Shown here: positions 13,971-24,317 of the stretch, piece by piece
How the letters are laid out: every line of letters starts with the position of its first letter
Numbering within the stretch: the first letter of the stretch is position 1
Assembly: GCA_947632275.1 (NCBI GenBank)
Contig: CANROR010000002.1
Span: forward strand, 1 to 39,716
Length of the DNA: 39,716 bases
DNA from: an uncultured Bacilli bacterium
GTDB taxonomy: Bacteria; Bacillota_I; Bacilli_A; RF39; UBA660
Reading direction: 5' to 3'
Notes under the pieces: generated by a model
Seen by the model: only the letters and a program-made list of their open reading frames with translations
Told to the model about the DNA's origin: nothing
Database searches by the model: none
Position numbers and translations under genes: made by a program

Positions 13971-14597
13971 ATGACTAAAAATCAAAGATTAATTATTGAC
14001 TCTAAATTTATTAAAGAGACGTTAAAATATGATTTAAGTTTAAATGAATTTTTGTTATTAGTATATTTTGATAATGCCTTTGATGCTTTTTTCGACGTTA
14101 AATTAATTTCTAATGTTTTAGAATTGACCGAAGAAAAAATTTTAGAAGCCTATAGTAGTTTATTAACGAAAAAAATAATTAAAGTGGAAACAATTAAAAA
14201 TAGAGAAGGGAAGATTGAAGAAAAAATATCTTTAGATCCTTTATATCAAGAAGTTTTAATCGAAGAAAAGAAAAATAAACAAAAGATAGAAAAGGAGGAT
14301 ATATTTAGTATTTTTGAAACGGAATTTGGACGAACTTTGTCAGGAACTGATTATGAAATTATTAATGCTTGGATTGAAAAAGGTTTTAGTGAAGAATTAA
14401 TTAAAGCGGCTTTAAAAGAAGCGGTTTATAATGGCGTTTATAGTTTAAGATATATTGATAAAATATTATTTGAATGGCATCGAAAAGGTTTTAAAGAAGT
14501 AAGTGATATTAAAAAATATTGGCAAAATAATGATAGTGAAATTCCCAAATTTGAAACAAAAGTATTAAATTTTGATTGGTTAAATGAAAGCGAATGA
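13971..14597 (+). CDS. dnaD: DnaD-domain replication initiation / primosome protein
   Basis: C-terminal DnaB_2/DnaD repeat (FETEFGRTLSGTDYEIINAWIEKGFSEELIKAALKEAV...YIDKILFEWHRKG). dnaD-nth synteny as in Bacillus. TTTACA-17-TATAAT promoter upstream. Confidence 0.8.
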   Translation: MTKNQRLIIDSKFIKETLKYDLSLNEFLLLVYFDNAFDAFFDVKLISNVLELTEEKILEAYSSLLTKKIIKVETIKNREGKIEEKISLDPLYQEVLIEEKKNKQKIEKEDIFSIFETEFGRTLSGTDYEIINAWIEKGFSEELIKAALKEAVYNGVYSLRYIDKILFEWHRKGFKEVSDIKKYWQNNDSEIPKFETKVLNFDWLNESE

Positions 14598-15213
14598 ATT
14601 AATTAAAGTCTTGGATAAATTATATCCGGATGCTAGATGTGAATTAGAATACACCAAAGATTATGAACTGTTAATTGCCACAGTCTTATCGGCCCAATGT
14701 ACGGATAAAAGAGTTAATATGGTGACCAAAGTATTATTTGCTAAGTATGATATTTTTGCTTTAGCTAAGGCTAACAAAAAAACAATTGAAAAAATTATTT
14801 ATCCGGTGGGGACTTATAATAAAAAAAGCGAATATATCATTAATATTGCTCAAAGTTTAGTAGAAAATTATAATGGGAAAGTGCCTAATGATCGCGCGTT
14901 TTTAGAATCTTTACCCGGAGTTGGACGGAAAACTTGTAATGTGGTGTTATCAAATATTTATAATGTTCCAGCAATTGCCGTCGATACTCATGTAGCTAGA
15001 GTGGCAAAAAGACTTAATTTAGCTTTCGAGAAAGATGATGTTAGCGTTATTGAAAAAAAGTTAATGAAATTTTTACCGCAAGCAAATTGGAGTCGGTGTC
15101 ACCATCAATTAGTTTTATTTGGCCGTTATATTTGTAAAAGTCAAAAACCGGATTGTGAAATTTGTCCTTTGCAAAAAAAATGTCAGTATTTTTTAAAAAA
15201 TAAGAAGAAATAA
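14584..15213 (+). CDS. nth: Endonuclease III
   Basis: HhH-GPD (LPGVGRKTCNVV; VDTHV) and C-terminal 4Fe-4S cluster loop CX6CX2CX5C (CKSQKPDCEICPLQKKC). Confidence 0.9.
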   Translation: MKANELIKVLDKLYPDARCELEYTKDYELLIATVLSAQCTDKRVNMVTKVLFAKYDIFALAKANKKTIEKIIYPVGTYNKKSEYIINIAQSLVENYNGKVPNDRAFLESLPGVGRKTCNVVLSNIYNVPAIAVDTHVARVAKRLNLAFEKDDVSVIEKKLMKFLPQANWSRCHHQLVLFGRYICKSQKPDCEICPLQKKCQYFLKNKKK

Positions 15214-15238
15214 GTATAATTTTTATACTTATTTTTTT
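15212..15238 (+). terminator. Intrinsic terminator after nth
   Basis: AAGTATAA / TTATACTT stem, 3-nt loop, T7 tail. Confidence 0.65.
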
Positions 15239-15269
15239 AATGTGTGTTATAATTTTTATGAGGAGGAAA

Positions 15270-16880
15270 ATGATGAAGAAATTTTTGAAAAAAATGGGCA
15301 CAGTCAAAATTGTTGGTGGTAGCTTAGGAATTTTAGGTTTACTTACTGCTTTTGTAGCGACTTTTTTAGGTCAATTTGCTAATGTGCAATTAATTATGCG
15401 TTTTGTCGCATCATTATTGATATTTGTGGGCTTATTCATTCTAGCATTAAACGCAGAAAAAAATCGTGGTTTAAAAGCTTTAGGAGCCGTTATTCTTTCG
15501 GCAATAATTATTTCCTGGATTATTCCAACTGGTGGTTTTAATGGGGCCGAATTTAGTATGGCACCTGATCTAAGTCGGATCGGTTTTGCCGATATTGGGG
15601 CCGGACTATATTATGCTTTTAACTTTACTTTAGACAAATTATTATTCTTAATTGTCTTAGCAACCTTTTATGGTGTATTAACTAAAGTTAGAGGCTATCA
15701 AAAGCTAGTTCATAATTTGGCTAATAGCTTAAAGAATCATGAAATTATTACGGCTTTAGGAATGACTTTAATTATTACGGCGGCAACGGTGATGGTTAGA
15801 GATGTATTTGTTGTTTTAGTATTTGTTCCATTCTTTGTATCTATCTTAAAAAATATGAAAATGGAAAAAATTGCAACTTTTGCTATAACCTATGGCGCAA
15901 TAGTAGTTGGCTTAATTGGCGTTTTATATGGTTCTCAAAGCTTATATGATTTTAATTATTATATTAGTGCCGAAGTTACAACTGGTTTAACCTATCGGGG
16001 TATAATTTTAGCCATTGCTTACGTGTTATATAACTTCTTTATTGTCATGCGGCTTAAAAGCGTGAAAAAAGCTAAAAATGCCGAATTGGTGGAAGATCCA
16101 TTTGAAGTAGAAGCTACAAGAAAGAAAACACATGCTTGGCCAGTTGCTATTTTATTAGTAATATTATTTGCCGTTACAATAATCGGTTATATTACTTGGA
16201 GTACCAACTGGAATATAACTTTCTTTAATGATTTACATGAAAAAGCAATCGCTTTAACGATTGGCAAAAAGTTCTCAATTACGGGCTCTGATCTACCAAT
16301 AGTAAGTTATATTTTAGGTCAAAATGTTTATGCTTTAGGTAATATTGAATATCTATTTGCATTAGATTCAATGCTTATTTTTGTAGGTATTTTATTGTCT
16401 TTATGCTATCGCGTAAAATTTGATGAAGTAATAGCTGGTGCTTATGAAGGTGTTAAAAAAGCAGTTAAACCAATCTTAGCAGTTTTAGGAATTTATTTTG
16501 CATTCTTTATTCTATACATGTCACCATTTATTCCAACTGTAACTAATTGGATGTATGGTTTGACGACAGAATTAAATCCAGTTTTAGCTTCAATAATGGC
16601 TTTCATATCATCAATATTTAGTGCTGATTTAGGATATACATCTTATTCAGTAGGCCAATTTTTGACAACTGCTTATGCAACTAACTTAGATATTGTTCAT
16701 ACCATCTATATGGCAATGTATGGTTTAGCTCAAGTTTGTATGCCAACAAGTTTAATTTTAATGGTTGGTTTATCACTTATGAACATTGATTATAAATCAT
16801 GGCTAAAATATATTTGGTTATTCGTTGTTGGTATGTTCGTTATTTTAGTGGTATTATTTAGTGTCGTCTTATATATTTAA
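15270..16880 (+). CDS. Polytopic integral membrane protein (10 or more predicted TM), putative transporter
   Basis: Long hydrophobic ORF. AGGAGG SD precedes ATG 15270/15273; extended -10 TGTTATAAT upstream. Family not recognised with certainty (YfcC-like is possible). Confidence 0.6.
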   Translation: MMKKFLKKMGTVKIVGGSLGILGLLTAFVATFLGQFANVQLIMRFVASLLIFVGLFILALNAEKNRGLKALGAVILSAIIISWIIPTGGFNGAEFSMAPDLSRIGFADIGAGLYYAFNFTLDKLLFLIVLATFYGVLTKVRGYQKLVHNLANSLKNHEIITALGMTLIITAATVMVRDVFVVLVFVPFFVSILKNMKMEKIATFAITYGAIVVGLIGVLYGSQSLYDFNYYISAEVTTGLTYRGIILAIAYVLYNFFIVMRLKSVKKAKNAELVEDPFEVEATRKKTHAWPVAILLVILFAVTIIGYITWSTNWNITFFNDLHEKAIALTIGKKFSITGSDLPIVSYILGQNVYALGNIEYLFALDSMLIFVGILLSLCYRVKFDEVIAGAYEGVKKAVKPILAVLGIYFAFFILYMSPFIPTVTNWMYGLTTELNPVLASIMAFISSIFSADLGYTSYSVGQFLTTAYATNLDIVHTIYMAMYGLAQVCMPTSLILMVGLSLMNIDYKSWLKYIWLFVVGMFVILVVLFSVVLYI

Positions 16881-16883
16881 AAG

Positions 16884-16916
16884 TAACTCTTCGGAGTTAT
16901 TTTTTTTTTTTTTTTT
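16884..16916 (+). terminator. Intrinsic terminator with a 17-T tail
   Basis: TAACTC-TTCG-GAGTTA hairpin followed by T17. Confidence 0.8.
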
Positions 16917-16976
16917 GAAAAAATATAGACAAAATTTTAAATTAAAGTATAATTAAGTTAAAAGGATAAGAGCAGT

Positions 16977-18368
16977 ATGGGTAGTAAAAAAAGTATTATA
17001 TTAATTGTTGTTTGTTGTGTTTTTATTAATATTTTAAGTGCTTTTATGATTGTTATGTGTTTTTTGCCAATCTTTGAATTAAAAGGGGAAAAAGAAATTT
17101 ATCTTAATATCAATAGTTCTTATACTGATGCTGGCGTTTTGGCAAAATTTCAAGGTAAAAATATTGCGGATGAAGTGGAAATTCAAAATAATGTTGATGT
17201 GACTAAACCCGGCCGATACGAAATAGTTTATAAATTAAAAAAAGGTTTAACCAATAAAAGTTTAACTCGCAAAGTGATTGTTCAAGATTTAGAAAAACCA
17301 ACGATTGAGCTTGAGGGCGAGACGGATATTTATTTAGCTAAATGTGAAGAATATCAAGAAGCGGGTTATAAAGCTTATGATAATGTTGATGGCGATTTGA
17401 CCGCTAAAGTTGTTGTAACTAATCAAGATGATAAAATAATTTATGAAGTAAGTGATACGGCTCAAAATAAATTTACGATTGAAAGAAATATTATTCACGA
17501 AGATAAAGTGGCACCAGAAATAACATTAAACGAAGGCGATACGATTTCGATTATTCAAAATTCTAAATTTGTCGATCCGGGTTATAAAGCAATTGACAAT
17601 TGTGATGTTGATTATACTAAAGATGTTGTAGTCACAGGTTCTGTTGATACTTCTAAACTAGGTAGTTATAAACTTACTTATACTGTTAAAGATGAATCAG
17701 GTAACGAAGCCCAAAAGGAAAGGGTAGTTAAAGTAATTAAAAAGTTAAAAGGGGTGATATATTTAACTTTTGATGATGGTCCAGGCGGTTATACTGATGA
17801 TATTTTAGCCATTTTAGCTCAAAATAATATTAAAGCCACGTTTTTTGTAACTAATCAGTTTCCCAAATATCAAGGAATGATCAAAAAAGAAGATGAAGCC
17901 GGCCATACGGTGGCGGTTCATACTTATTCCCATAGTTGGAATGTTTATAATAGTGTGGATGCCTATTTAAATGATTTTAATAAAATTAACAATATTATTT
18001 ATGAACAAACGGGTCATTATGCCAAATATTTTCGTTTTCCGGGCGGCAGTTCTAATACCGTTAGTAAAAAACATAGTGTCGGCATAATGACAAAACTTGC
18101 TAGTTTAATGACCGAAAAAGGATATACTTATTTTGATTGGAATGTTGATTCCGGCGATACCCATAAAAATAATACACCAACTTATATAATTAATAATATT
18201 AAAAAATATGTTAATGGCAATGGTAATTATATTATACTAATGCATGATATTAAGAAAAATACTTTAAGTGCTTTACCAAGTGTTATTAATTATTTAAAAG
18301 GAAGAGGTTACACTTTTAGGGCTATTGATGAAAATACACCAGTAAAACATTTTAAAATTGCTAATTAA
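16977..18368 (+). CDS. Membrane-anchored polysaccharide (peptidoglycan/chitin-type) deacetylase with three Ig-like repeats
   Basis: N-terminal TM. Three about 70-aa repeats ending in G.Y...Y-type motifs (DUF5011-like). NodB motifs TFDDGPG, HTYSH, FRFPGG, LMHD. Confidence 0.8.
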   Translation: MGSKKSIILIVVCCVFINILSAFMIVMCFLPIFELKGEKEIYLNINSSYTDAGVLAKFQGKNIADEVEIQNNVDVTKPGRYEIVYKLKKGLTNKSLTRKVIVQDLEKPTIELEGETDIYLAKCEEYQEAGYKAYDNVDGDLTAKVVVTNQDDKIIYEVSDTAQNKFTIERNIIHEDKVAPEITLNEGDTISIIQNSKFVDPGYKAIDNCDVDYTKDVVVTGSVDTSKLGSYKLTYTVKDESGNEAQKERVVKVIKKLKGVIYLTFDDGPGGYTDDILAILAQNNIKATFFVTNQFPKYQGMIKKEDEAGHTVAVHTYSHSWNVYNSVDAYLNDFNKINNIIYEQTGHYAKYFRFPGGSSNTVSKKHSVGIMTKLASLMTEKGYTYFDWNVDSGDTHKNNTPTYIINNIKKYVNGNGNYIILMHDIKKNTLSALPSVINYLKGRGYTFRAIDENTPVKHFKIAN

Positions 18369-18392: not shown

Positions 18393-18421
18393 TTGAATAT
18401 ATATATATATATATATATAAT
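18393..18421 (+). promoter_or_regulatory. Promoter TTGAAT-17 nt-TATAAT whose spacer is a TA dinucleotide repeat
   Basis: -35 at 18393-18398, -10 at 18416-18421. The spacer 18399-18415 consists entirely of alternating A/T. Confidence 0.6.
18398..18419. repeat. (TA)11 microsatellite
   Basis: 22 nt of perfect TA repeats read directly from the sequence. Confidence 0.98.
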
Positions 18422-18446
18422 TATGGGTGAAAGTAGGATTTTGCCC

Positions 18447-20471
18447 ATGAGAAAAATATTGTTAAGTATTCTAGGAATAATGATAATGCTATGTGTAATC
18501 TTTTTAGGTTATGAAATAAGATATAGTCAAAAGCAAGAAGTCAATAATATGATGGCAATATATATTGAAGAAGAAAAAGGTACAGGTAAGTATCAAAAGA
18601 CCAATTTATATAAATGGCCAAATAATTCCGAATATGCTTTAAACATGCATAAGACATATTGTGAGAATGGCAGTATTTTAAGATATAATTTAGAAACAAA
18701 TAAGATAAATGTCAAAGTTAAAGGAACTGATAAATGTTACATCTATTTTGATAAAGCTAGTTATGGTACGGAAGAACATCCTTATTTAATTCAAACAATC
18801 GAAGATTTAGTGAGATTAAGTAATAAAGTAAGTGCCGGGACAACCTATGAAGGGGAATACTTTTTACTTACTAATGATTTAGATTTTAATAATCCAAGTG
18901 ATTATGAAGATGCTAATAGAACAGACTTTAAAGATATAAATGGGGTAAATGGAAATGAAACCTTAATTAAAGAACTGACGACGGGAAGTGGTTTTAAACC
19001 TATTGGAAATTCAAAGCAAACATTTCAAGGAAATTTTGATGGTAACAATAAAACCATAAATAATTTGTATATAAATAATAAGACTGAAGGAGATGCTTTA
19101 AGATTTGGCTTATTTGGCGAAATAAATAATTCTATAATTAAAAATTTAACATTAAAGGGGAATATAAGCAGTACAACAAGAGCGGTAATGGGAAGTGTTT
19201 CTGGAGGTGTTCGTGGAACAACTACTATAAGTAATATTACAAATTATGTTACAATAACAAGTGAATCAAATGAATATGATGTTGGAGGAATAATTGGCGG
19301 TAATTATGGAATTGTTACAATACAAAATTGTCAAAATTATGGTGAAATAAGTGGGGCTTTCAATACAGGTGGTATCGTTGGTTTCGTAAATAATAATTTA
19401 ACAATTGAAAATAGTATTAATAATGCCAGTATAACTAATAATATTGGTAATTATGTTGGGGGAATTGTAGGTCAAAGTAATTCAGCCACAACTATATTAA
19501 AAATTGCTAATTCTCATAATGAAGGACAAATAACTAGTGGTTATGCATTAAATAATAGAATTGCTATAGGTGGTATAATTGGAATGGTTAATGGGAAAGC
19601 AAGTATTGAAAATTGTAGTAATAATAATCAGATAGTAAATACTCGTACTAGTTTTGAAAATTTTGCTCAATATGATTTGGGCGGAATAATTGGCTTAAAT
19701 TTTGGTCAATCACAAATAAAAAAATGTCAAAATAAAGCTAGTATAACTGGGGGAACATATATAGGTGGAATAACTGGGTTAAATGGTGATAATGCAACTT
19801 TAATAATGGATAAATGTTTTAATTATGGGTCTATTGATAATCATCAAATTAGTTTTAGTGATTCTACTAGAACATCTTTGACAGAAACCGCGGGACTATT
19901 AGGTTATAATTCCAGAAGTATATCGTATATTATTAACAGTCAAAATTATGGTAATATTAATGGCTTTGATAGTGCGGCAGGGATTAATATGCTATCGTTT
20001 AATAATATTGTAGTTTTAAATTCTAGTAATAATGGAAATACAGCATCTATCCGGAATGATATATATGGAATAGGTTATTATTCTGTTTCAAATAGTCAAA
20101 AAGTAAATGATCATTTAAATAATGTTTATAATGTTGGTCAATCTAAAAGATTAGCGTTTTTTGAAAAAAATGTTTGTACAAATTGTTCTCTTACACCTCA
20201 CCTTAATAATTTATATTACTTGGATGGCAGTGTTACTACTAAAACCAACGATGATATTATGTTTGGCAATTATTTTACAATGAAAGACAAAAATTATATG
20301 CAATCTCAAGCATTTGTTGATGAACTAAATGAGAATATTTTGAATGAGTATACATTAAAAACTAGTGATGGTCAAATAACTTTAACTGAAATAGATCCTT
20401 TATTAAAAGATTATACTTTGAGTAAATGGACGTTAGGTAGTGATAGTTATCCTACTTTAATAAATGAATAA
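18447..20471 (+). CDS. N-terminally anchored surface protein with GLUG-type beta-helix repeats
   Basis: TM LLSILGIMIMLCVIFLGY. EEHPYLIQTIEDLVRLSNKV entry motif. At least 8 roughly 22-25-aa repeats with GGI(I/V/T)G cores. No LPXTG. ATG 18447 chosen because the longer ORF translates the TA repeat (IYIYIY). Confidence 0.7.
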   Translation: MRKILLSILGIMIMLCVIFLGYEIRYSQKQEVNNMMAIYIEEEKGTGKYQKTNLYKWPNNSEYALNMHKTYCENGSILRYNLETNKINVKVKGTDKCYIYFDKASYGTEEHPYLIQTIEDLVRLSNKVSAGTTYEGEYFLLTNDLDFNNPSDYEDANRTDFKDINGVNGNETLIKELTTGSGFKPIGNSKQTFQGNFDGNNKTINNLYINNKTEGDALRFGLFGEINNSIIKNLTLKGNISSTTRAVMGSVSGGVRGTTTISNITNYVTITSESNEYDVGGIIGGNYGIVTIQNCQNYGEISGAFNTGGIVGFVNNNLTIENSINNASITNNIGNYVGGIVGQSNSATTILKIANSHNEGQITSGYALNNRIAIGGIIGMVNGKASIENCSNNNQIVNTRTSFENFAQYDLGGIIGLNFGQSQIKKCQNKASITGGTYIGGITGLNGDNATLIMDKCFNYGSIDNHQISFSDSTRTSLTETAGLLGYNSRSISYIINSQNYGNINGFDSAAGINMLSFNNIVVLNSSNNGNTASIRNDIYGIGYYSVSNSQKVNDHLNNVYNVGQSKRLAFFEKNVCTNCSLTPHLNNLYYLDGSVTTKTNDDIMFGNYFTMKDKNYMQSQAFVDELNENILNEYTLKTSDGQITLTEIDPLLKDYTLSKWTLGSDSYPTLINE

Positions 20472-20503: not shown

Positions 20504-22439
20504 CTTTTAGTTCAAAATAAATGTCTCTTAGTTCCATGGCTCTTTCAAAATCCATAGCTCGAGCTGCTTCTTTCATTTCTTCTTCAACTTGAATTAACAT
20601 TTGTTGTTTTTCTTTTTTACTTAATTTTTCTTTTGGTTTATTAGTTGCATTGTTGGATACTACTTCTTTAATTTCTTTTTCAATTGTCTTAGGCGTAATG
20701 CCATGTTTTTGATTATATTCTTCTTGAATTTGGCGCCGTCTTTTAGTTTCTTCGATGGCTTCTCTCATGCCTTCACTTACTTCATCAGCATACATAATAA
20801 CATGACCGGAAGCATTCCGAGCACAACGGCCAATGGTTTGAATTAAACTTCGGGTACTACGTAAGAATCCTTGTTTGTCGGCATCTAAGATACAAATAAG
20901 ACTTACTTCGGGAATGTCTAAGCCTTCGCGCAAAAGATTAATCCCGACGATACAATCATAAACACCTAGACGTAAATCATGAATAATTTTTAAGCGTTCT
21001 AAAGTTTTAATTTCACTATGAAGATAGGCAACCTTAATATTTAATTCTTTTAAATAATTGGTTAGTTCTTCACTCATTCGAATCGTCAAAGTCGTAATTA
21101 AAACTCTTTCATTTTTGGCTTTACGTTTATTAATTTCACTAATAATATCATCGATTTGACCTAAGGTTGGTTTTACTTCAATTGTTGGATCAAGTAGCCC
21201 GGTAGGTCTAATTATTTGTTCGACATAAGTATTATGCGTTTTTTCCAGTTCATAGTCCCCTGGGGTCGCGGATACATAGATGGCAGTATTAATTTTGCTT
21301 TCAAATTCATCATATTTTAAAGGCCGGTTGTTTAAAGCGCTGGGAAGCCGAAAGCCATAATCAACTAAAGTTTGTTTCCGCATTCTATCGCCATTATACA
21401 TGCCTCGCACTTGCGGTAAAGTAACATGCGATTCATCGACGACTAATAAAAAATCTTTAGGGAAAAAGTCAATTAAACAACTTGGGGTTTCGCCATCTTC
21501 TCTTAAGGCTAAATGTTGCGAATAATTTTCGACTCCATTGCAATAACCGGTTTCTTTAAGCATTTCAATGTCATAATTAGTTCGTTCGCGAAGCCGTTGT
21601 TCTTCAATAAATTTATTTTGACTTTTTAATTCTTCTAATCTTTGGTCTAATTCTTTTTGAATTCGTTCGATAGCAATATCTAGCTTTTCTTTACTTGTTA
21701 CGAAATGGGAAGCGGGTGAGATAGTAATACTTTTTTTACTTTGCATAACTTCGCCGGTTAAAGGATCAAATAAGGTAATAGCATCCACTTTATCTTCATC
21801 TAAAGTAATCCGAATGCCTTTGGCTTTTTCATTCACGGGGATAACATCAATATTATTACCTCTTACGCGAAAAGTGCCGCGGTGAAAATCTAAATCGTTG
21901 CGCTCGTAAGTCATATCAATTAATTTTTCTAAAATTTTGGTTCGATTGATTTCTTGATCTAAAGTTAAAATTAGCGTATTTTTTTCGTATTCTTCTTTTT
22001 CCCCAATCCCATAGATACATGAAACGGAAGCTACTACAATGACATCCTGATAATTAATTAAAGCACTTGTTGCCGCATGTCTTAGTTCATCAATTTCATC
22101 ATTGATGGAAGCATCCTTTTCAATATAAGTATCACTGCTTGGAACGTAAGCTTCCGGCTGATAATAATCGTAGTAAGAGACGAAGTACTCAACATGATTG
22201 TTGGGAAATAATTCTTTTAGTTCGGCATAAAGTTGGCCCGCCAAAGTTTTATTATGAGCTAAAACTAAAGTGGGTTTATTAACTTCTTTTATGACATTAG
22301 CTATCGTAAAAGTTTTTCCGGTACCAGTAGCCCCGAGTAAAACTTGTTCTTTTTTACCATCTTTAATGCCCTTAACTAATTCGGCAATCGCTTCAGGTTG
22401 ATCGCCACTAGGCTTATATGGTGAAATTAATTCAAACAT
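20496..22439 (-). CDS. uvrB: Excinuclease ABC subunit B
   Basis: [18 protein letters not shown] start, Walker [14 protein letters not shown] box, C-terminal UVR domain ([15 protein letters not shown]). Confidence 0.95.
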
Positions 22440-23434
22440 TCTAATTCCTCCTTGCTATTTTTTAATTGCCAGTAACCGCCATTATTTGGCCCGATTCGTT
22501 CAATAATATTATAATCAACTAATTTTTTTAAATTATATTTAACTCCATCTGGTGTAATATGTAAAATATTCGCAAGTTCATTTCTCGTAATTTGCGAATT
22601 TTCTTTTATTAATTCGATAATTTTTAATTGGTTTTGGTTTAATTTTAAAGTTTGGGTAGTTTTTTGGGTAGTTTTTTCTAAAGAAAAATTAATACATTTT
22701 AATAAAAAATTAATGAATACATTAGCATTACCATTAATGTGACATTGAGAAATAGAATCATAATATTCTTGTTGTCGTAAATATATTTCTTCTTCGATTG
22801 GGATAAAGGCAAATTTGGCATTCCAATTAGTTAAAATTAAACTTACCCAAAATCTTGCCATTCGGCCATTACCATCACTAAAAGGATGAATATAGACAAA
22901 ATAATAATGAAACAAAGCGGCTAATATTAAAGGATGAATTTTATTTTCATTTTCATTCATAAATGTAAATAAATTTTTCATTAGAGAAGGAACTAATATC
23001 GATTCCGGAGCCGTAAAAATTATTTTCTTCCCTCTTTTTACTCCCTCGCCATGATTTCGATAATAGCCATTATCATCATCAAAATACTTCATCATTAGGG
23101 TATGAGCTTTTAAAAGATCTTTTTCCTTTCGCCAATTATATTCTTTTATATGTTCATATAATTCATTGGCATTTTTAACTTCTTGAATTTCTTTTCGATT
23201 ACCTAAAGTAGGCTTTTGTTCAACAATATTTTCCACAGACTTTAATGATAAGGAATTATCTTCAATGGCAAGTGATGAATATATAGATCTGACCTTTGAT
23301 TTAGTTTGTAAATTTCTTTTCTTATGGGGATCATCAATACTAAGCAATGCAAGTTTTTTTTCAATATCTTTTAGGATTTTTTGATTATCATCAGTGATAT
23401 AAAAAATCGGTTTTAAGGTATTTATATTTGCCAT
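22427..23434 (-). CDS. Fic-domain protein (Fic_N + Fic core + C-terminal winged HTH)
   Basis: [12 protein letters not shown] Fic motif. N-terminal SSLAIEDN inhibitory-helix-like motif. C-terminal [24 protein letters not shown] wHTH. AAGGAAGG SD before ATG 23434. Stop overlaps the uvrB start by 13 nt. Confidence 0.85.
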
Positions 23435-23576
23435 TTTAATACCTTCCTTTCTGTTATTTAATGCTATAAAACTTTTATTTATATTATATAACAAAATAAA
23501 AAAAATAATAGTCCTTAGTTAAAGACTTTTAATAGGCAAAACTTGGGCTATCTGTTATAATAAAAATAGGTGGATT

Positions 23577-24317
23577 ATGGAAAAGGGAGAAAATGCTTTA
23601 ACACTAAATGTTTTAAAAGATATAGATTTAGGTTCGGTAGAAGATTTTATTAATGAAGTTAAAAAAAGAGACATAAAAACTTTTTCGAATTATGAAGAAA
23701 TAGTTTCTATTTTTACTAAACAATATCAAGAATTAAATTTAACTAAGGAAGAAAAACAAAAAATAAGTTTTTATTTAAAATTTTATACCGGCAATGCTTA
23801 TGATCGGATTAATGCTTTATTACGGAATAACTGGCAATATCAAGAACAAGGAATATTAACCCCCGAAGTGGAACAAAAATATCAAGAATTTTTGGACGAA
23901 ATTAGAAATATTTTTAGTTTAAGTCCAGTCAATAATCTTAATTTTGTTACTTATCGAAGTGTTCCTTTAGCCATTTTTCAAAGCTATGGCATAAATAGTA
24001 AAGAAGAACTTTTATCTTTAAAAAATAAATATTATTTTGATCCCGGTTTTGTTAGTACGTCTTTACTTAATTCTTGGCAGTTAGTAAAAGATAATGTGGA
24101 AATGCAAATAATTGTGCCTTTAGAATGTACTGAAGCTTTTCCTTTAATTGGTAGTAATTTATCTTTACATGTCGGTGAAACTGAATACTTAATTGCTAAT
24201 GATAGTTTATTTAAAGTATATGATGTGGAAAGAAATGGGGATAAAACTACTTTAAAGATGGTTTATATTCCTAAAAAAATCTGGCAACGCGAAATTAATT
24301 GTCAAAAAAATAAATAA
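23577..24317 (+). CDS. C3/Vip2-like R-S-E ADP-ribosyltransferase, no signal peptide
   Basis: YTGNAYDRINALLRN, TYRSV (Arg), GFVSTSLL (STS), GETEYLI (ExE), in the canonical order and spacing. The N-terminus is hydrophilic. Confidence 0.75.
   Translation: MEKGENALTLNVLKDIDLGSVEDFINEVKKRDIKTFSNYEEIVSIFTKQYQELNLTKEEKQKISFYLKFYTGNAYDRINALLRNNWQYQEQGILTPEVEQKYQEFLDEIRNIFSLSPVNNLNFVTYRSVPLAIFQSYGINSKEELLSLKNKYYFDPGFVSTSLLNSWQLVKDNVEMQIIVPLECTEAFPLIGSNLSLHVGETEYLIANDSLFKVYDVERNGDKTTLKMVYIPKKIWQREINCQKNK

What the first reader, a model, noticed from the sequence alone, without database searches (positions are those of the whole stretch)
18393..18449. (TA)11 tract forms the entire -35/-10 spacer of the surface-protein promoter: likely phase-variable switch
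TTGAAT (18393-18398) and TATAAT (18416-18421) are separated by exactly 17 nt, and the whole spacer is an alternating TA repeat. The (TA)11 tract spans 18398-18419 and shares its end bases with both hexamers. Gain or loss of one TA unit by slipped-strand mispairing would change the spacer to 19 or 15 nt and should strongly change promoter strength. Haemophilus influenzae uses this mechanism at the hifA/hifB fimbrial promoter, where TA repeats sit between -35 and -10. The controlled gene (ATG 18447) is a large membrane-anchored GLUG/beta-helix repeat protein, the kind of exposed antigen or adhesin that benefits from ON/OFF switching. At the present length the promoter has optimal spacing (ON state).
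Basis: partly seen in the sequence, partly recalled or inferred. Interest (0 to 1): 0.65.

Follow-up and report, generated by a model that had tools for sequence, protein, structure and literature searches.

The report
TA-repeat promoter switch for surface protein
A perfect (TA)11 repeat fills the gap between the two halves of the promoter of a membrane-anchored surface-protein gene in an uncultured gut bacterium. Related bacteria carry the same promoter with 9 or 10 repeats, or with poly-T or poly-G instead, so it is very probably a slippage-driven on/off switch of a kind already known from Haemophilus and mycoplasmas.

Summary
TTGAAT (18393-18398), (TA)11 (18398-18419) and TATAAT (18416-18421) give a 17-nt spacer made only of TA. 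A Shine-Dalgarno site GAAAGTAGG and the ATG at 18447 follow. The tract is one of only two long simple repeats in 39.7 kb; the chance expectation for (TA)11 is about 5e-7.

Comparison with relatives supports the interpretation. The same cassette (TTGnnn, a perfect (TA)9-11, TATAAT, GGGAAAGTAGG leader, ATG) precedes nine family genes in four lineages, although the proteins are only 24-60% identical. Conservation starts at the -35 hexamer. Spacers are 13, 15 (six copies) or 17 nt (two copies), always in the register that can reach 17. In other lineages, family genes have poly-T (T18-T20) or poly-G (G8/G9) in the spacer. One orthologous poly-T pair differs only by T18 versus T16 in 2.2 kb.

The product is an N-terminally anchored GLUG beta-helix protein.

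This is a new member of a known kind, closest to Mycoplasma mycoides Vmm and H. influenzae hif. Switching was not shown directly: no second copy of this locus or read data could be obtained, and read-through from the upstream gene may make OFF leaky.

The parts
18393..18398 (+). -35 hexamer TTGAAT; its last base is the first T of the (TA)11 tract (the AT-register tract 18397-18419 shares two bases with it)
   Evidence: CTTG is invariant in the alignment of 8 homologous promoters, and conservation begins there.
18398..18419 (+). Perfect (TA)11 simple repeat that supplies the entire 17-nt spacer (18399-18415)
   Evidence: Markov expectation 5e-7. Homologous promoters carry (TA)9-10.
18416..18421 (+). 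-10 hexamer TATAAT (the last TATA of the tract plus AT)
   Evidence: Invariant in all 8 aligned cassettes.
18426..18430 (+). Predicted transcription start region, 5-9 nt after the -10 hexamer; corresponds to the conserved GGG of the relatives
   Evidence: Inferred from the promoter geometry and alignment A2. Not mapped.
18429..18437 (+). Shine-Dalgarno site GAAAGTAGG, 9 nt before the ATG; conserved leader motif of the family
   Evidence: also present in family members that lack a repeat.
18421..18450 (+). 12-bp leader hairpin with the Shine-Dalgarno site in the loop and the AUG in the 3' arm. It is complete only on RNA that starts upstream of 18421, that is, on read-through transcripts
   Evidence: -13.5 kcal/mol, z -4.7, 0 of 200 shuffles fold as well. 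RNA starting at 18427 folds at only -4.3 kcal/mol, z +0.5. Not conserved in relatives.
18447..20471 (+). Controlled gene: 674-aa protein with an N-terminal transmembrane helix, a small two-cysteine beta domain, a long GLUG-type beta-helix and a C-terminal domain
   Evidence: Pfam GLUG at 21.3 bits against a cut-off of 20.5. AlphaFold2 model with pLDDT 85.5. Foldseek hits to the IgA1-protease beta-helix, 3n6z at E 1.3e-4. Multi-paralogue family.
16977..18368 (+). Co-directional upstream gene (polysaccharide deacetylase with Ig-like surface domains). No terminator lies between it and the promoter

Best explanation
The (TA)11 tract is the spacer of a SigA/sigma-70-type promoter (TTGAAT-17-TATAAT) that drives a short-leader mRNA for a membrane-anchored GLUG beta-helix surface protein.

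A perfect 22-nt dinucleotide repeat is prone to slipped-strand mispairing during replication. Each gain or loss of one TA unit moves the spacer to 19 or 15 nt. This misaligns the two hexamers for RNA polymerase and lowers or abolishes transcription, reversibly. The sequenced state, 17 nt, is the predicted ON state.

The locus belongs to a family-wide system. In this uncultured gut Bacilli clade, genes that share the same N-terminal anchor domain often have a simple repeat ((TA)n, Tn or Gn) between the -35 and -10 hexamers. The TA and poly-T forms share the same -10/leader, and most copies sit at non-optimal spacer lengths.

Shown: the anatomy, the conservation of the cassette, the differences in unit number between homologous promoters, and the predicted surface-protein fold. 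Inferred: that these hexamers are the promoter used, that repeat length changes at high frequency within a population, and that expression follows spacer length.
For: 1. Exact anatomy.
2. The repeat is non-random and nearly unique in the window.
3. Cassette conservation: C-TTGnnn-(TA)n-TATAAT-(A/T)AAAGGGAAAGTAGG-ATG stands upstream of 9 family genes. These are the window; Lapin-016 bin77 (L001 twice, L002 twice, L006, L071); Lapin-020 bin108 (L005); and Logan ERR14656751 (L167). Conservation starts at the -35 hexamer, and nothing upstream of it aligns.
4. The proteins behind these promoters are only 24-60% identical, and some share only the N-terminal domain. Every tract is still a perfect repeat, which argues for selection on the repeat.
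5. Unit number differs between copies: spacers are 17 (window, L001b), 15 (six copies) and 13 (L167). With three different -35 hexamers (TTGAAT, TTGCAA, TTGACT), all copies are in the odd register that can reach exactly 17.
6. Other repeat types in family promoters: poly-T (T18-T20) lies between TTGA and gTATAAT with the similar leader GGGGAAAATAGAGG (L042, L049, L072, L079; spacers 17-19). Poly-G (G8 or G9) lies between TTGACT and TATAAT, with a different leader, in six promoters of the Lapin-027 bins.
7. Length polymorphism at one orthologous promoter: L078 and L126 are 96.9% identical over 2176 nt, and the only indel is T18 versus T16.
8. The product is plausibly surface exposed.
9. Precedent: indels in the -35/-10 spacer switch vlp, maa2 and vmm in mycoplasmas (PMC2268961). 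[quoted passage not shown] Poly-TA tracts precede lipoprotein genes in M. mycoides (PMC3053259). A (TA)9-11 tract controls hifA/hifB (PMC2651432).
Against: - No second copy of this species' locus and no read-level data could be obtained, so variation at this very tract is unobserved. The only same-species contig found, L164, stops 2 kb short.
- The transcription start is not mapped, and promoter-like hexamers are common in this AT-rich DNA (38 found against 30 expected).
- No terminator lies between the upstream co-directional gene and this promoter, so read-through could give repeat-independent expression.
- Six of nine family copies sit at 15 nt. This could mean mostly OFF, or it could mean the true functional geometry differs from the one assumed.
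- A repeat beside a promoter does not guarantee switching. The T-tract at the M. agalactiae vpma promoter was shown not to switch (PMC2268961).
- Many family members have no repeat upstream.
- Some poly-T tracts follow small hairpins and may be terminator tails.
Confidence: 0.7

Rival explanations
1. Static promoter. The TA tract is just an AT-rich, flexible spacer or a protein-binding site of a constitutive or conventionally regulated promoter. The unit-number differences between copies are slow, historical changes with no role as a switch.
For: The hexamers and 17-nt spacing make a good ordinary promoter. No within-population variation has been seen for this locus. The vpma T-tract precedent shows that repeats at promoters can be inert (PMC2268961).
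Against: Six of nine homologous copies have 15 nt and one has 13 nt, which is poor for a constitutive promoter. A perfect 18-23-nt repeat kept in nine promoters, while the proteins diverged to 24-60% identity, is hard to explain without selection on the repeat. Family promoters with poly-T or poly-G in the spacer point to mutability rather than a specific sequence. The only indel in 2.2 kb of one orthologous pair is in the tract.
Confidence: 0.15
2. Structural element. The self-complementary (TA)n acts as a DNA cruciform or RNA hairpin, for example as a terminator or attenuator for the upstream deacetylase gene or as a recombination or intron-homing site, rather than through spacer length.
For: The tract is a perfect palindrome and folds as a 9-bp AU hairpin in the minimum-energy RNA structure. 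In Lapin-020 bin108 a group II intron is inserted in the TA tract of several family promoters. In the rabbit MAGs, CCCTT and AAGGG flank the tract as an inverted repeat.
Against: The hairpin is weak: -3.3 kcal/mol as DNA, z -0.9, and it is absent from the RNA centroid structure. No U-run follows it, so it is not an intrinsic terminator. The flanking inverted repeat is absent in the window, which has GGGCTT...ATGGGTG. This idea does not explain the conserved TTG and TATAAT hexamers or the poly-T and poly-G equivalents, which cannot form hairpins.
Confidence: 0.07
3. Neutral slippage product or assembly artefact with no function.
For: AT-rich genomes generate TA runs, and the source is a metagenome-type assembly.
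Against: The expectation is 5e-7 per window. The same tract at the same promoter position occurs in independent assemblies of four lineages.
Confidence: 0.03

Closest known systems
Vmm / Vmc-type (TA)n promoters of the Mycoplasma mycoides cluster (Persson et al. 2002, as cited in PMC2628566, PMC2268961 and PMC3053259)
   Same: A perfect TA dinucleotide repeat lies in the promoter of a surface-protein gene. The promoter is unidirectional. ON/OFF switching is by dinucleotide insertion or deletion in the -35/-10 spacer. Several genes per genome each have their own tract of different length, in a low-GC Bacillota-derived lineage.
   Different: The products are unrelated. Vmm is a 16-kDa lipoprotein. 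Here the product is a 674-aa non-lipoprotein with a signal-anchor helix and a GLUG beta-helix. The organism is an uncultured gut bacterium using the standard code, since ORFs are intact under table 11. Switching is demonstrated for Vmm and only inferred here.
Haemophilus influenzae hifA/hifB fimbrial promoter, (TA)9-11 (van Ham et al. 1993, as cited in PMC2651432)
   Same: TA repeats between the -35 and -10 hexamers. The unit number sets the spacer length and thereby transcription of a surface structure.
   Different: In hif the tract serves two overlapping divergent promoters. Here the upstream gene is co-directional and only one promoter is involved. The phylum and the gene product are unrelated.
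Mycoplasma hyorhinis vlp (poly-A spacer) and M. arthritidis maa2 promoters (PMC2268961)
   Same: A multigene family of surface proteins in which each gene has its own hypermutable tract in the promoter spacer, giving combinatorial expression. This matches the poly-T and poly-G classes found here in sister lineages.
   Different: Those are homopolymers, whereas the window has a dinucleotide repeat. The proteins are lipoproteins with repetitive C-termini, not beta-helix proteins.

Membership tests
Phase-variable promoters switched by a simple repeat in the spacer (hif / Vmm / vlp type) | A perfect simple repeat long enough to be hypermutable | tested here: met
   (TA)11, 22 nt, 100% perfect. The hif tract is (TA)9-11 (PMC2651432). 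Poly-TA tracts upstream of M. mycoides lipoprotein genes have 10 or more units (PMC3053259).
Phase-variable promoters switched by a simple repeat in the spacer (hif / Vmm / vlp type) | The repeat lies between the -35 and -10 hexamers, so unit changes alter the spacing | tested here: met
   TTGAAT-17-TATAAT with the spacer made entirely of repeat. The hexamers are conserved in 8 homologous promoters. The identity of the promoter rests on sequence and conservation; the transcription start is not mapped.
Phase-variable promoters switched by a simple repeat in the spacer (hif / Vmm / vlp type) | Repeat number varies between cells, clones or strains at the same locus | not testable with these tools
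   No second copy of this locus and no reads are available. Indirect support: homologous promoters have 9, 10 or 11 units, and an orthologous poly-T promoter differs by T18 versus T16 as the only indel in 2.2 kb.
Phase-variable promoters switched by a simple repeat in the spacer (hif / Vmm / vlp type) | Expression follows repeat number | not testable with these tools
   This needs reporter fusions or transcript measurements.
Phase-variable promoters switched by a simple repeat in the spacer (hif / Vmm / vlp type) | The controlled product is surface exposed | tested here: met
   By prediction only: an N-terminal transmembrane helix (residues 2-26) followed by an extracellular-type beta-helix; GLUG motif; fold hits to IgA1-protease beta-helices and adhesins.
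Vmm/Vmc lipoprotein family (homology to the mycoplasma proteins) | A lipoprotein signal peptide with a lipobox cysteine and a small repetitive mature protein | tested here: not met
   The N-terminus MRKILLSILGIMIMLCVIFLGYEI has no [LVI][ASTVI][GAS]C lipobox. The protein is 674 aa with a beta-helix. It works like Vmm at the promoter but is not a member of that protein family.
GLUG-repeat beta-helix proteins (Pfam PF07581) | A match to the GLUG motif above the curated cut-off, and a beta-helix fold | tested here: met
   21.3 bits against a cut-off of 20.5, which is marginal. Many homologues carry PF07581. The model shows a long beta-helix over about residues 196-545. The best PDB match is 3n6z, a putative IgA1 protease beta-helix, at E 1.3e-4. 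No HExxH protease motif is present in the sequence.

The most novel reading that the evidence does not exclude
An uncultivated clade of gut Bacilli (rabbit, other animal and human gut MAGs) may have a previously undescribed set of phase-variable genes. A large family of surface proteins with a common N-terminal anchor domain often has a hypermutable tract, (TA)n, Tn or Gn, in the promoter spacer. In the TA and poly-T classes the -10/leader cassette is recognisably the same. This would allow combinatorial ON/OFF expression like the mycoplasma Vlp/Vmc systems, but in standard-code commensals and with beta-helix proteins.

In the window, a leader hairpin that buries the AUG only on read-through RNA would insulate the switch from upstream transcription. 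In one lineage, a group II intron has inserted in the TA tract itself.
Probability: 0.45. Interest if true: 0.65.

Novelty: new member of a known kind. Interest (0 to 1): 0.55.

Why it matters
Phase variation driven by simple repeats is documented almost entirely in cultured pathogens such as Haemophilus, Neisseria, Campylobacter, Helicobacter and mycoplasmas. This finding would extend it to uncultured commensal gut Bacilli. The library search found no paper that links the RF39-type lineages with phase variation.

It also offers a clear case in which related promoters carry three different repeat types. That is evidence that mutability itself, not a particular sequence, is what is selected.

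In practice, metagenomic assemblies of these organisms hide population heterogeneity at such tracts. The loci also mark candidate host- or phage-exposed surface proteins. The contigs break at these cassettes, which would explain fragmented MAGs.

Tried and rejected
**Searches for another copy of this locus**
- Exact look-up of the product, of the upstream deacetylase and of UvrB found nothing on record.
- A pattern scan of metagenome contigs with both flanks and a variable gap gave 0 hits.
- Protein-guided scans of genome and metagenome contigs found no relative closer than 54%.
- The Nth look-up found one same-species contig (L164, 99.95% identical), but it ends 2 kb before the tract.

**Multi-contig homologues.** P0023, P0027 and P0013 have no repeat upstream, so they were no use for allele comparison. 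The closest homologue, P0002, is not retrievable.

**Readings tested and set aside**
- Terminator: the AU hairpin is weak and has no U-tail.
- Coding repeat from TTG 18393: rejected on the homologue N-termini and the Shine-Dalgarno site.
- Conserved flanking inverted repeat (CCCTT...AAGGG): present in the rabbit MAGs but absent in the window.
- Conserved leader hairpin: specific to the window, with no structure in six relatives.

**Other negative results**
- Rfam finds only two tRNAs in the window.
- An HMM of the N-terminal domain finds no second family member in the window.
- The primary Vmm paper (PMC135138) is not held, so its exact ON/OFF repeat numbers are not quoted.
Full report
**1. 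The observation**

The sequence reads ...GGGC TTGAAT ATATATATATATATATA TATAAT TATGGGTGAAAGTAGGATTTTGCCC ATG.
- TTGAAT occupies 18393-18398.
- The alternating tract (TA)11 occupies 18398-18419. Tandem Repeats Finder reports it as (AT)11.5 at 18397-18419, 100% matches.
- TATAAT occupies 18416-18421.
- The spacer, 18399-18415, is 17 nt and consists only of repeat.
- The ATG is at 18447.

The generic promoter scan lists this site at 10 of 12 matches. That scan finds about as many sites as shuffled sequence does (38 against 30), so it is not evidence on its own.

The repeat is evidence. A first-order Markov model of the window expects 5e-7 such tracts. At a cut-off of mononucleotide runs of 9 or more and dinucleotide repeats of 5 units or more, the whole 39.7-kb window contains only two long simple repeats. 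They are this tract and T17 at 16900-16916, and they lie in the two adjacent intergenic regions upstream of two consecutive surface-protein genes.

**2. Context**

The window is 25-34% GC (mostly about 29%) and looks like ordinary chromosome. It carries DnaD, Nth, a 546-aa protein of unknown function, a polysaccharide deacetylase with Ig-like surface domains (16977-18368), the gene in question (18447-20471), and then UvrB, Fic and others on either strand. ORFs are intact under the standard code.

The controlled gene encodes 674 aa.
- Pfam gives a marginal GLUG match of 21.3 bits against a cut-off of 20.5.
- An AlphaFold2 model built on 12 homologues has mean pLDDT 85.5. It shows an N-terminal helix (residues 2-26), a small beta domain with two conserved cysteines (36-103), a long beta-helix (about 196-545) and a C-terminal domain.
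- The best PDB matches are the beta-helix of a putative IgA1 protease (3n6z, E 1.3e-4) and of streptococcal and Gemella IgA1 proteases.
- There is no HExxH motif and no lipobox.

The mechanical ORF from TTG 18393 is in frame with the ATG. However, homologues begin at the aligned MKK/MRK. The conserved GAAAGTAGG (18429-18437) differs at one position from my recollection of the Bacillota Shine-Dalgarno consensus (GAAAGGAGG), and it lies 9 nt before ATG 18447. The tract is therefore non-coding.

**3. Related sequences**

The closest homologue is only 54% identical. No other copy of this species' locus could be found, by exact-protein look-ups, by a flank-pattern scan of metagenome contigs, or by protein-guided scans of genome and metagenome contigs. 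One 2-kb contig from ENA sample ERZ27249309 is 99.95% identical to window 14410-16408, but it does not reach the tract.

The relatives are gut MAGs labelled 'uncultured Bacilli bacterium', from the rabbit 'Lapin' series, the BRZ series and Hadza samples. Candidatus Onthocola and 'uncultured Tenericutes' MAGs share the N-terminal domain. Most of these genomes hold several paralogues.

**4. The key result: the promoter is a conserved cassette and the repeat is part of it**

*The TA class.* Upstream of family genes in Lapin-016 bin77 (L001 twice, L002 twice, L006, L071), Lapin-020 bin108 (L005) and a Logan assembly (L167), the sequence is C-TTG(CAA/AAT/ACT)-(TA)9-10-TATAAT-(A/T)AAAGGGAAAGTAGG-N7-ATG.
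- In the alignment of eight of these promoters, nothing upstream of CTTG is conserved. From CTTG through the tract, the -10 hexamer and the Shine-Dalgarno leader, most columns are invariant or nearly so. That is the footprint expected of a promoter.
- The proteins downstream are only 24-60% identical, and two share just the N-terminal domain. All nine tracts are nevertheless perfect repeats.
- Unit number differs. The resulting spacers are 17 nt (window, L001b), 15 nt (L001a, L002a, L002b, L005, L006, L071) and 13 nt (L167).
- With three different -35 hexamers, all copies sit in the register from which whole TA units can reach exactly 17.
- In bin77, one of six copies is at 17 and five are at 15. 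This is the pattern expected of a family that is mostly OFF, although a MAG shows only the consensus of a population.

*Other repeat types in the spacer.*
- In BRZ and Hadza MAGs, family promoters read TTGA-T18-20-gTATAAT-GGGGAAAATAGAGGTG-ATG, with spacers of 17-19 nt (L042, L049, L072, L079). Their -10 and leader resemble those of the TA class.
- In the Lapin-027 bins, six promoters read TTGACT-CC-G8/9-TATTA-TATAAT, with G8 in four copies and G9 in two. Their leader (AAAGGGAGAAAAAGTA-ATG) is different.
- So three repeat types occupy the spacer of promoters of one gene family. That argues that mutability, not a particular spacer sequence, is the selected property.

*Direct length polymorphism.* This was seen once. 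L078 (a MAG) and L126 (a metagenome contig) are 96.9% identical over 2176 nt, and their only indel is T18 versus T16 in the promoter tract.

*Exceptions.* Many family members, especially in human-gut contigs, have no repeat upstream. The trait is lineage-specific, not universal.

**5. Mechanism proposed**

Slipped-strand mispairing in the (TA)11 tract changes the spacer in 2-nt steps. Seventeen nt is optimal for SigA-type RNA polymerase (established knowledge). At 15 or 19 nt the hexamers are rotated and displaced relative to each other, and transcription falls. The sequenced allele is the predicted ON state.

Two local features modify the simple picture.
- No terminator separates the gene from the co-directional deacetylase gene, so read-through RNA probably exists.
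- The leader can form a 12-bp hairpin (18421-18450; -13.5 kcal/mol, z -4.7) with the Shine-Dalgarno site in its loop and the AUG paired. An RNA starting at the predicted start (about 18427) loses the 5' arm and folds only weakly (-4.3 kcal/mol, z +0.5).

This suggests that read-through RNA is poorly translated and that promoter-initiated RNA is open, which would keep the switch tight. This is inference. The hairpin is not conserved in relatives.

**6. Rivals**

- *Static promoter.* This cannot be excluded without read data. It fits poorly with the 13- and 15-nt copies and with three different repeat types in the family's spacers.
- *Hairpin, cruciform or terminator role.* This is weak. The tract folds at -3.3 kcal/mol as DNA (z -0.9), has no U-tail, lacks flanking complementarity in the window, and the idea does not apply to poly-T or poly-G.
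- *Chance or artefact.* This is excluded by the statistics and by recurrence in independent assemblies.
- *Caution from the literature.* The T-tract at the M. agalactiae vpma promoter does not switch (PMC2268961). Some poly-T tracts here follow small hairpins and may double as terminator tails.

**7. Comparison with known systems**

The mechanism is known. Indels in the -35/-10 spacer switch vlp (M. hyorhinis), maa2 (M. arthritidis) and vmm (M. mycoides) (PMC2268961). Vmm switching is by dinucleotide indels in a repetitive region of its promoter (PMC2628566). Poly-TA tracts of different lengths precede several lipoprotein genes in M. mycoides (PMC3053259). A (TA)9-11 tract controls hifA/hifB (PMC2651432).

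The window's promoter is unidirectional and belongs to a multigene family, so it is closer to Vmm/Vmc than to hif. The protein is not a Vmm-type lipoprotein, so this is a functional analogue and not a family member.

I rate it a new member of a known kind. The interesting extension is that it points to a whole set of phase-variable genes in an uncultured commensal clade. The paper search found no paper linking RF39-type lineages with phase variation.

**8. Verdict**

Confidence is about 0.7 that this is a repeat-length promoter switch. Interest is 0.55.

Noticed in passing
window 16883-16953: T17 (16900-16916) is the only other long simple repeat in the window. It follows the hairpin TAACTC-TTCG-GAGTTA, so it looks like a terminator of the 546-aa gene that ends at 16880. 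It lies 9 nt upstream of the TAGACA-16-TATAAT promoter of the deacetylase/Ig-like surface-protein gene (ATG 16977). It is not in the spacer. Length changes could still alter termination or UP-element phasing.
   Followed up: partly
window 18421-18450: A 12-bp leader hairpin (-13.5 kcal/mol, z -4.7) has the Shine-Dalgarno site in its loop and the AUG in its stem. It is complete only on transcripts that start upstream of the -10 hexamer, so it may silence read-through RNA. It is not conserved in relatives.
   Followed up: partly
L003 1-68, L008 1-64 and 2557-2633, L010 5564-5627 (Lapin-020 bin108): A group II intron sits between (AT)7A and TATAAT of several family promoters. Its 5' end reads GTGCG, and domains V/VI match RF00029 at E 4e-4 (the match is cut off by the contig start). 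The intron appears to have inserted in the TA tract, and contigs break there.
   Followed up: partly
L009 2952-2959, L012 2928-2935 and 5085-5093, L014 1201-1208, L016 5248-5255, L018 2951-2959: A poly-G tract (G8 in four copies, G9 in two) lies between TTGACT and TATAAT in six paralogue promoters of the Lapin-027 bins. This is a third repeat type in the spacer of promoters of this gene family.
   Followed up: partly
L042, L049, L072, L079, L070, L002 4386-4403, L078/L126: Poly-T tracts (T16-T27) fill the spacer between TTGA and gTATAAT upstream of genes that share the N-terminal domain. Many are preceded by a small hairpin whose 3' arm contains the -35 TTGA, suggesting overlapping terminator and promoter. 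L078 and L126 differ only by T18 versus T16.
   Followed up: partly
L069 4384-4392, L105 2108-2114, L104 2068-2076, L092 4827-4836: Poly-G tracts lie near the 5' end of a small gene downstream of family genes (product MKAEQTS.RSGGGNIVNVKQLLNDE...). G9 keeps the reading frame in L069, and G7 breaks it in the 86%-identical L105. This is a candidate coding-region switch.
   Followed up: partly
window 15887 / L164 1477: A same-species contig from ENA sample ERZ27249309 is 99.95% identical but lacks one A (TATAACC versus TAT-ACC). This splits the 546-aa ORF 15240-16880. Coverage there is only 2x, so it may be a sequencing error.
   Followed up: no
window 22427-24317: A Fic/DOC protein with a winged-helix domain (355 aa, minus strand) lies divergent from an ADP-ribosyltransferase exoenzyme-like protein (246 aa, PF03496). 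This may be a toxin or effector pair.
   Followed up: no
window 18447-18755 (product residues 1-103): The N-terminal module, a transmembrane helix plus a small beta domain with two conserved cysteines, is shared by hundreds of otherwise different proteins in gut Bacilli MAGs. Some homologues carry the prepilin N-methylation motif PF07963. It has no Pfam family of its own.
   Followed up: no
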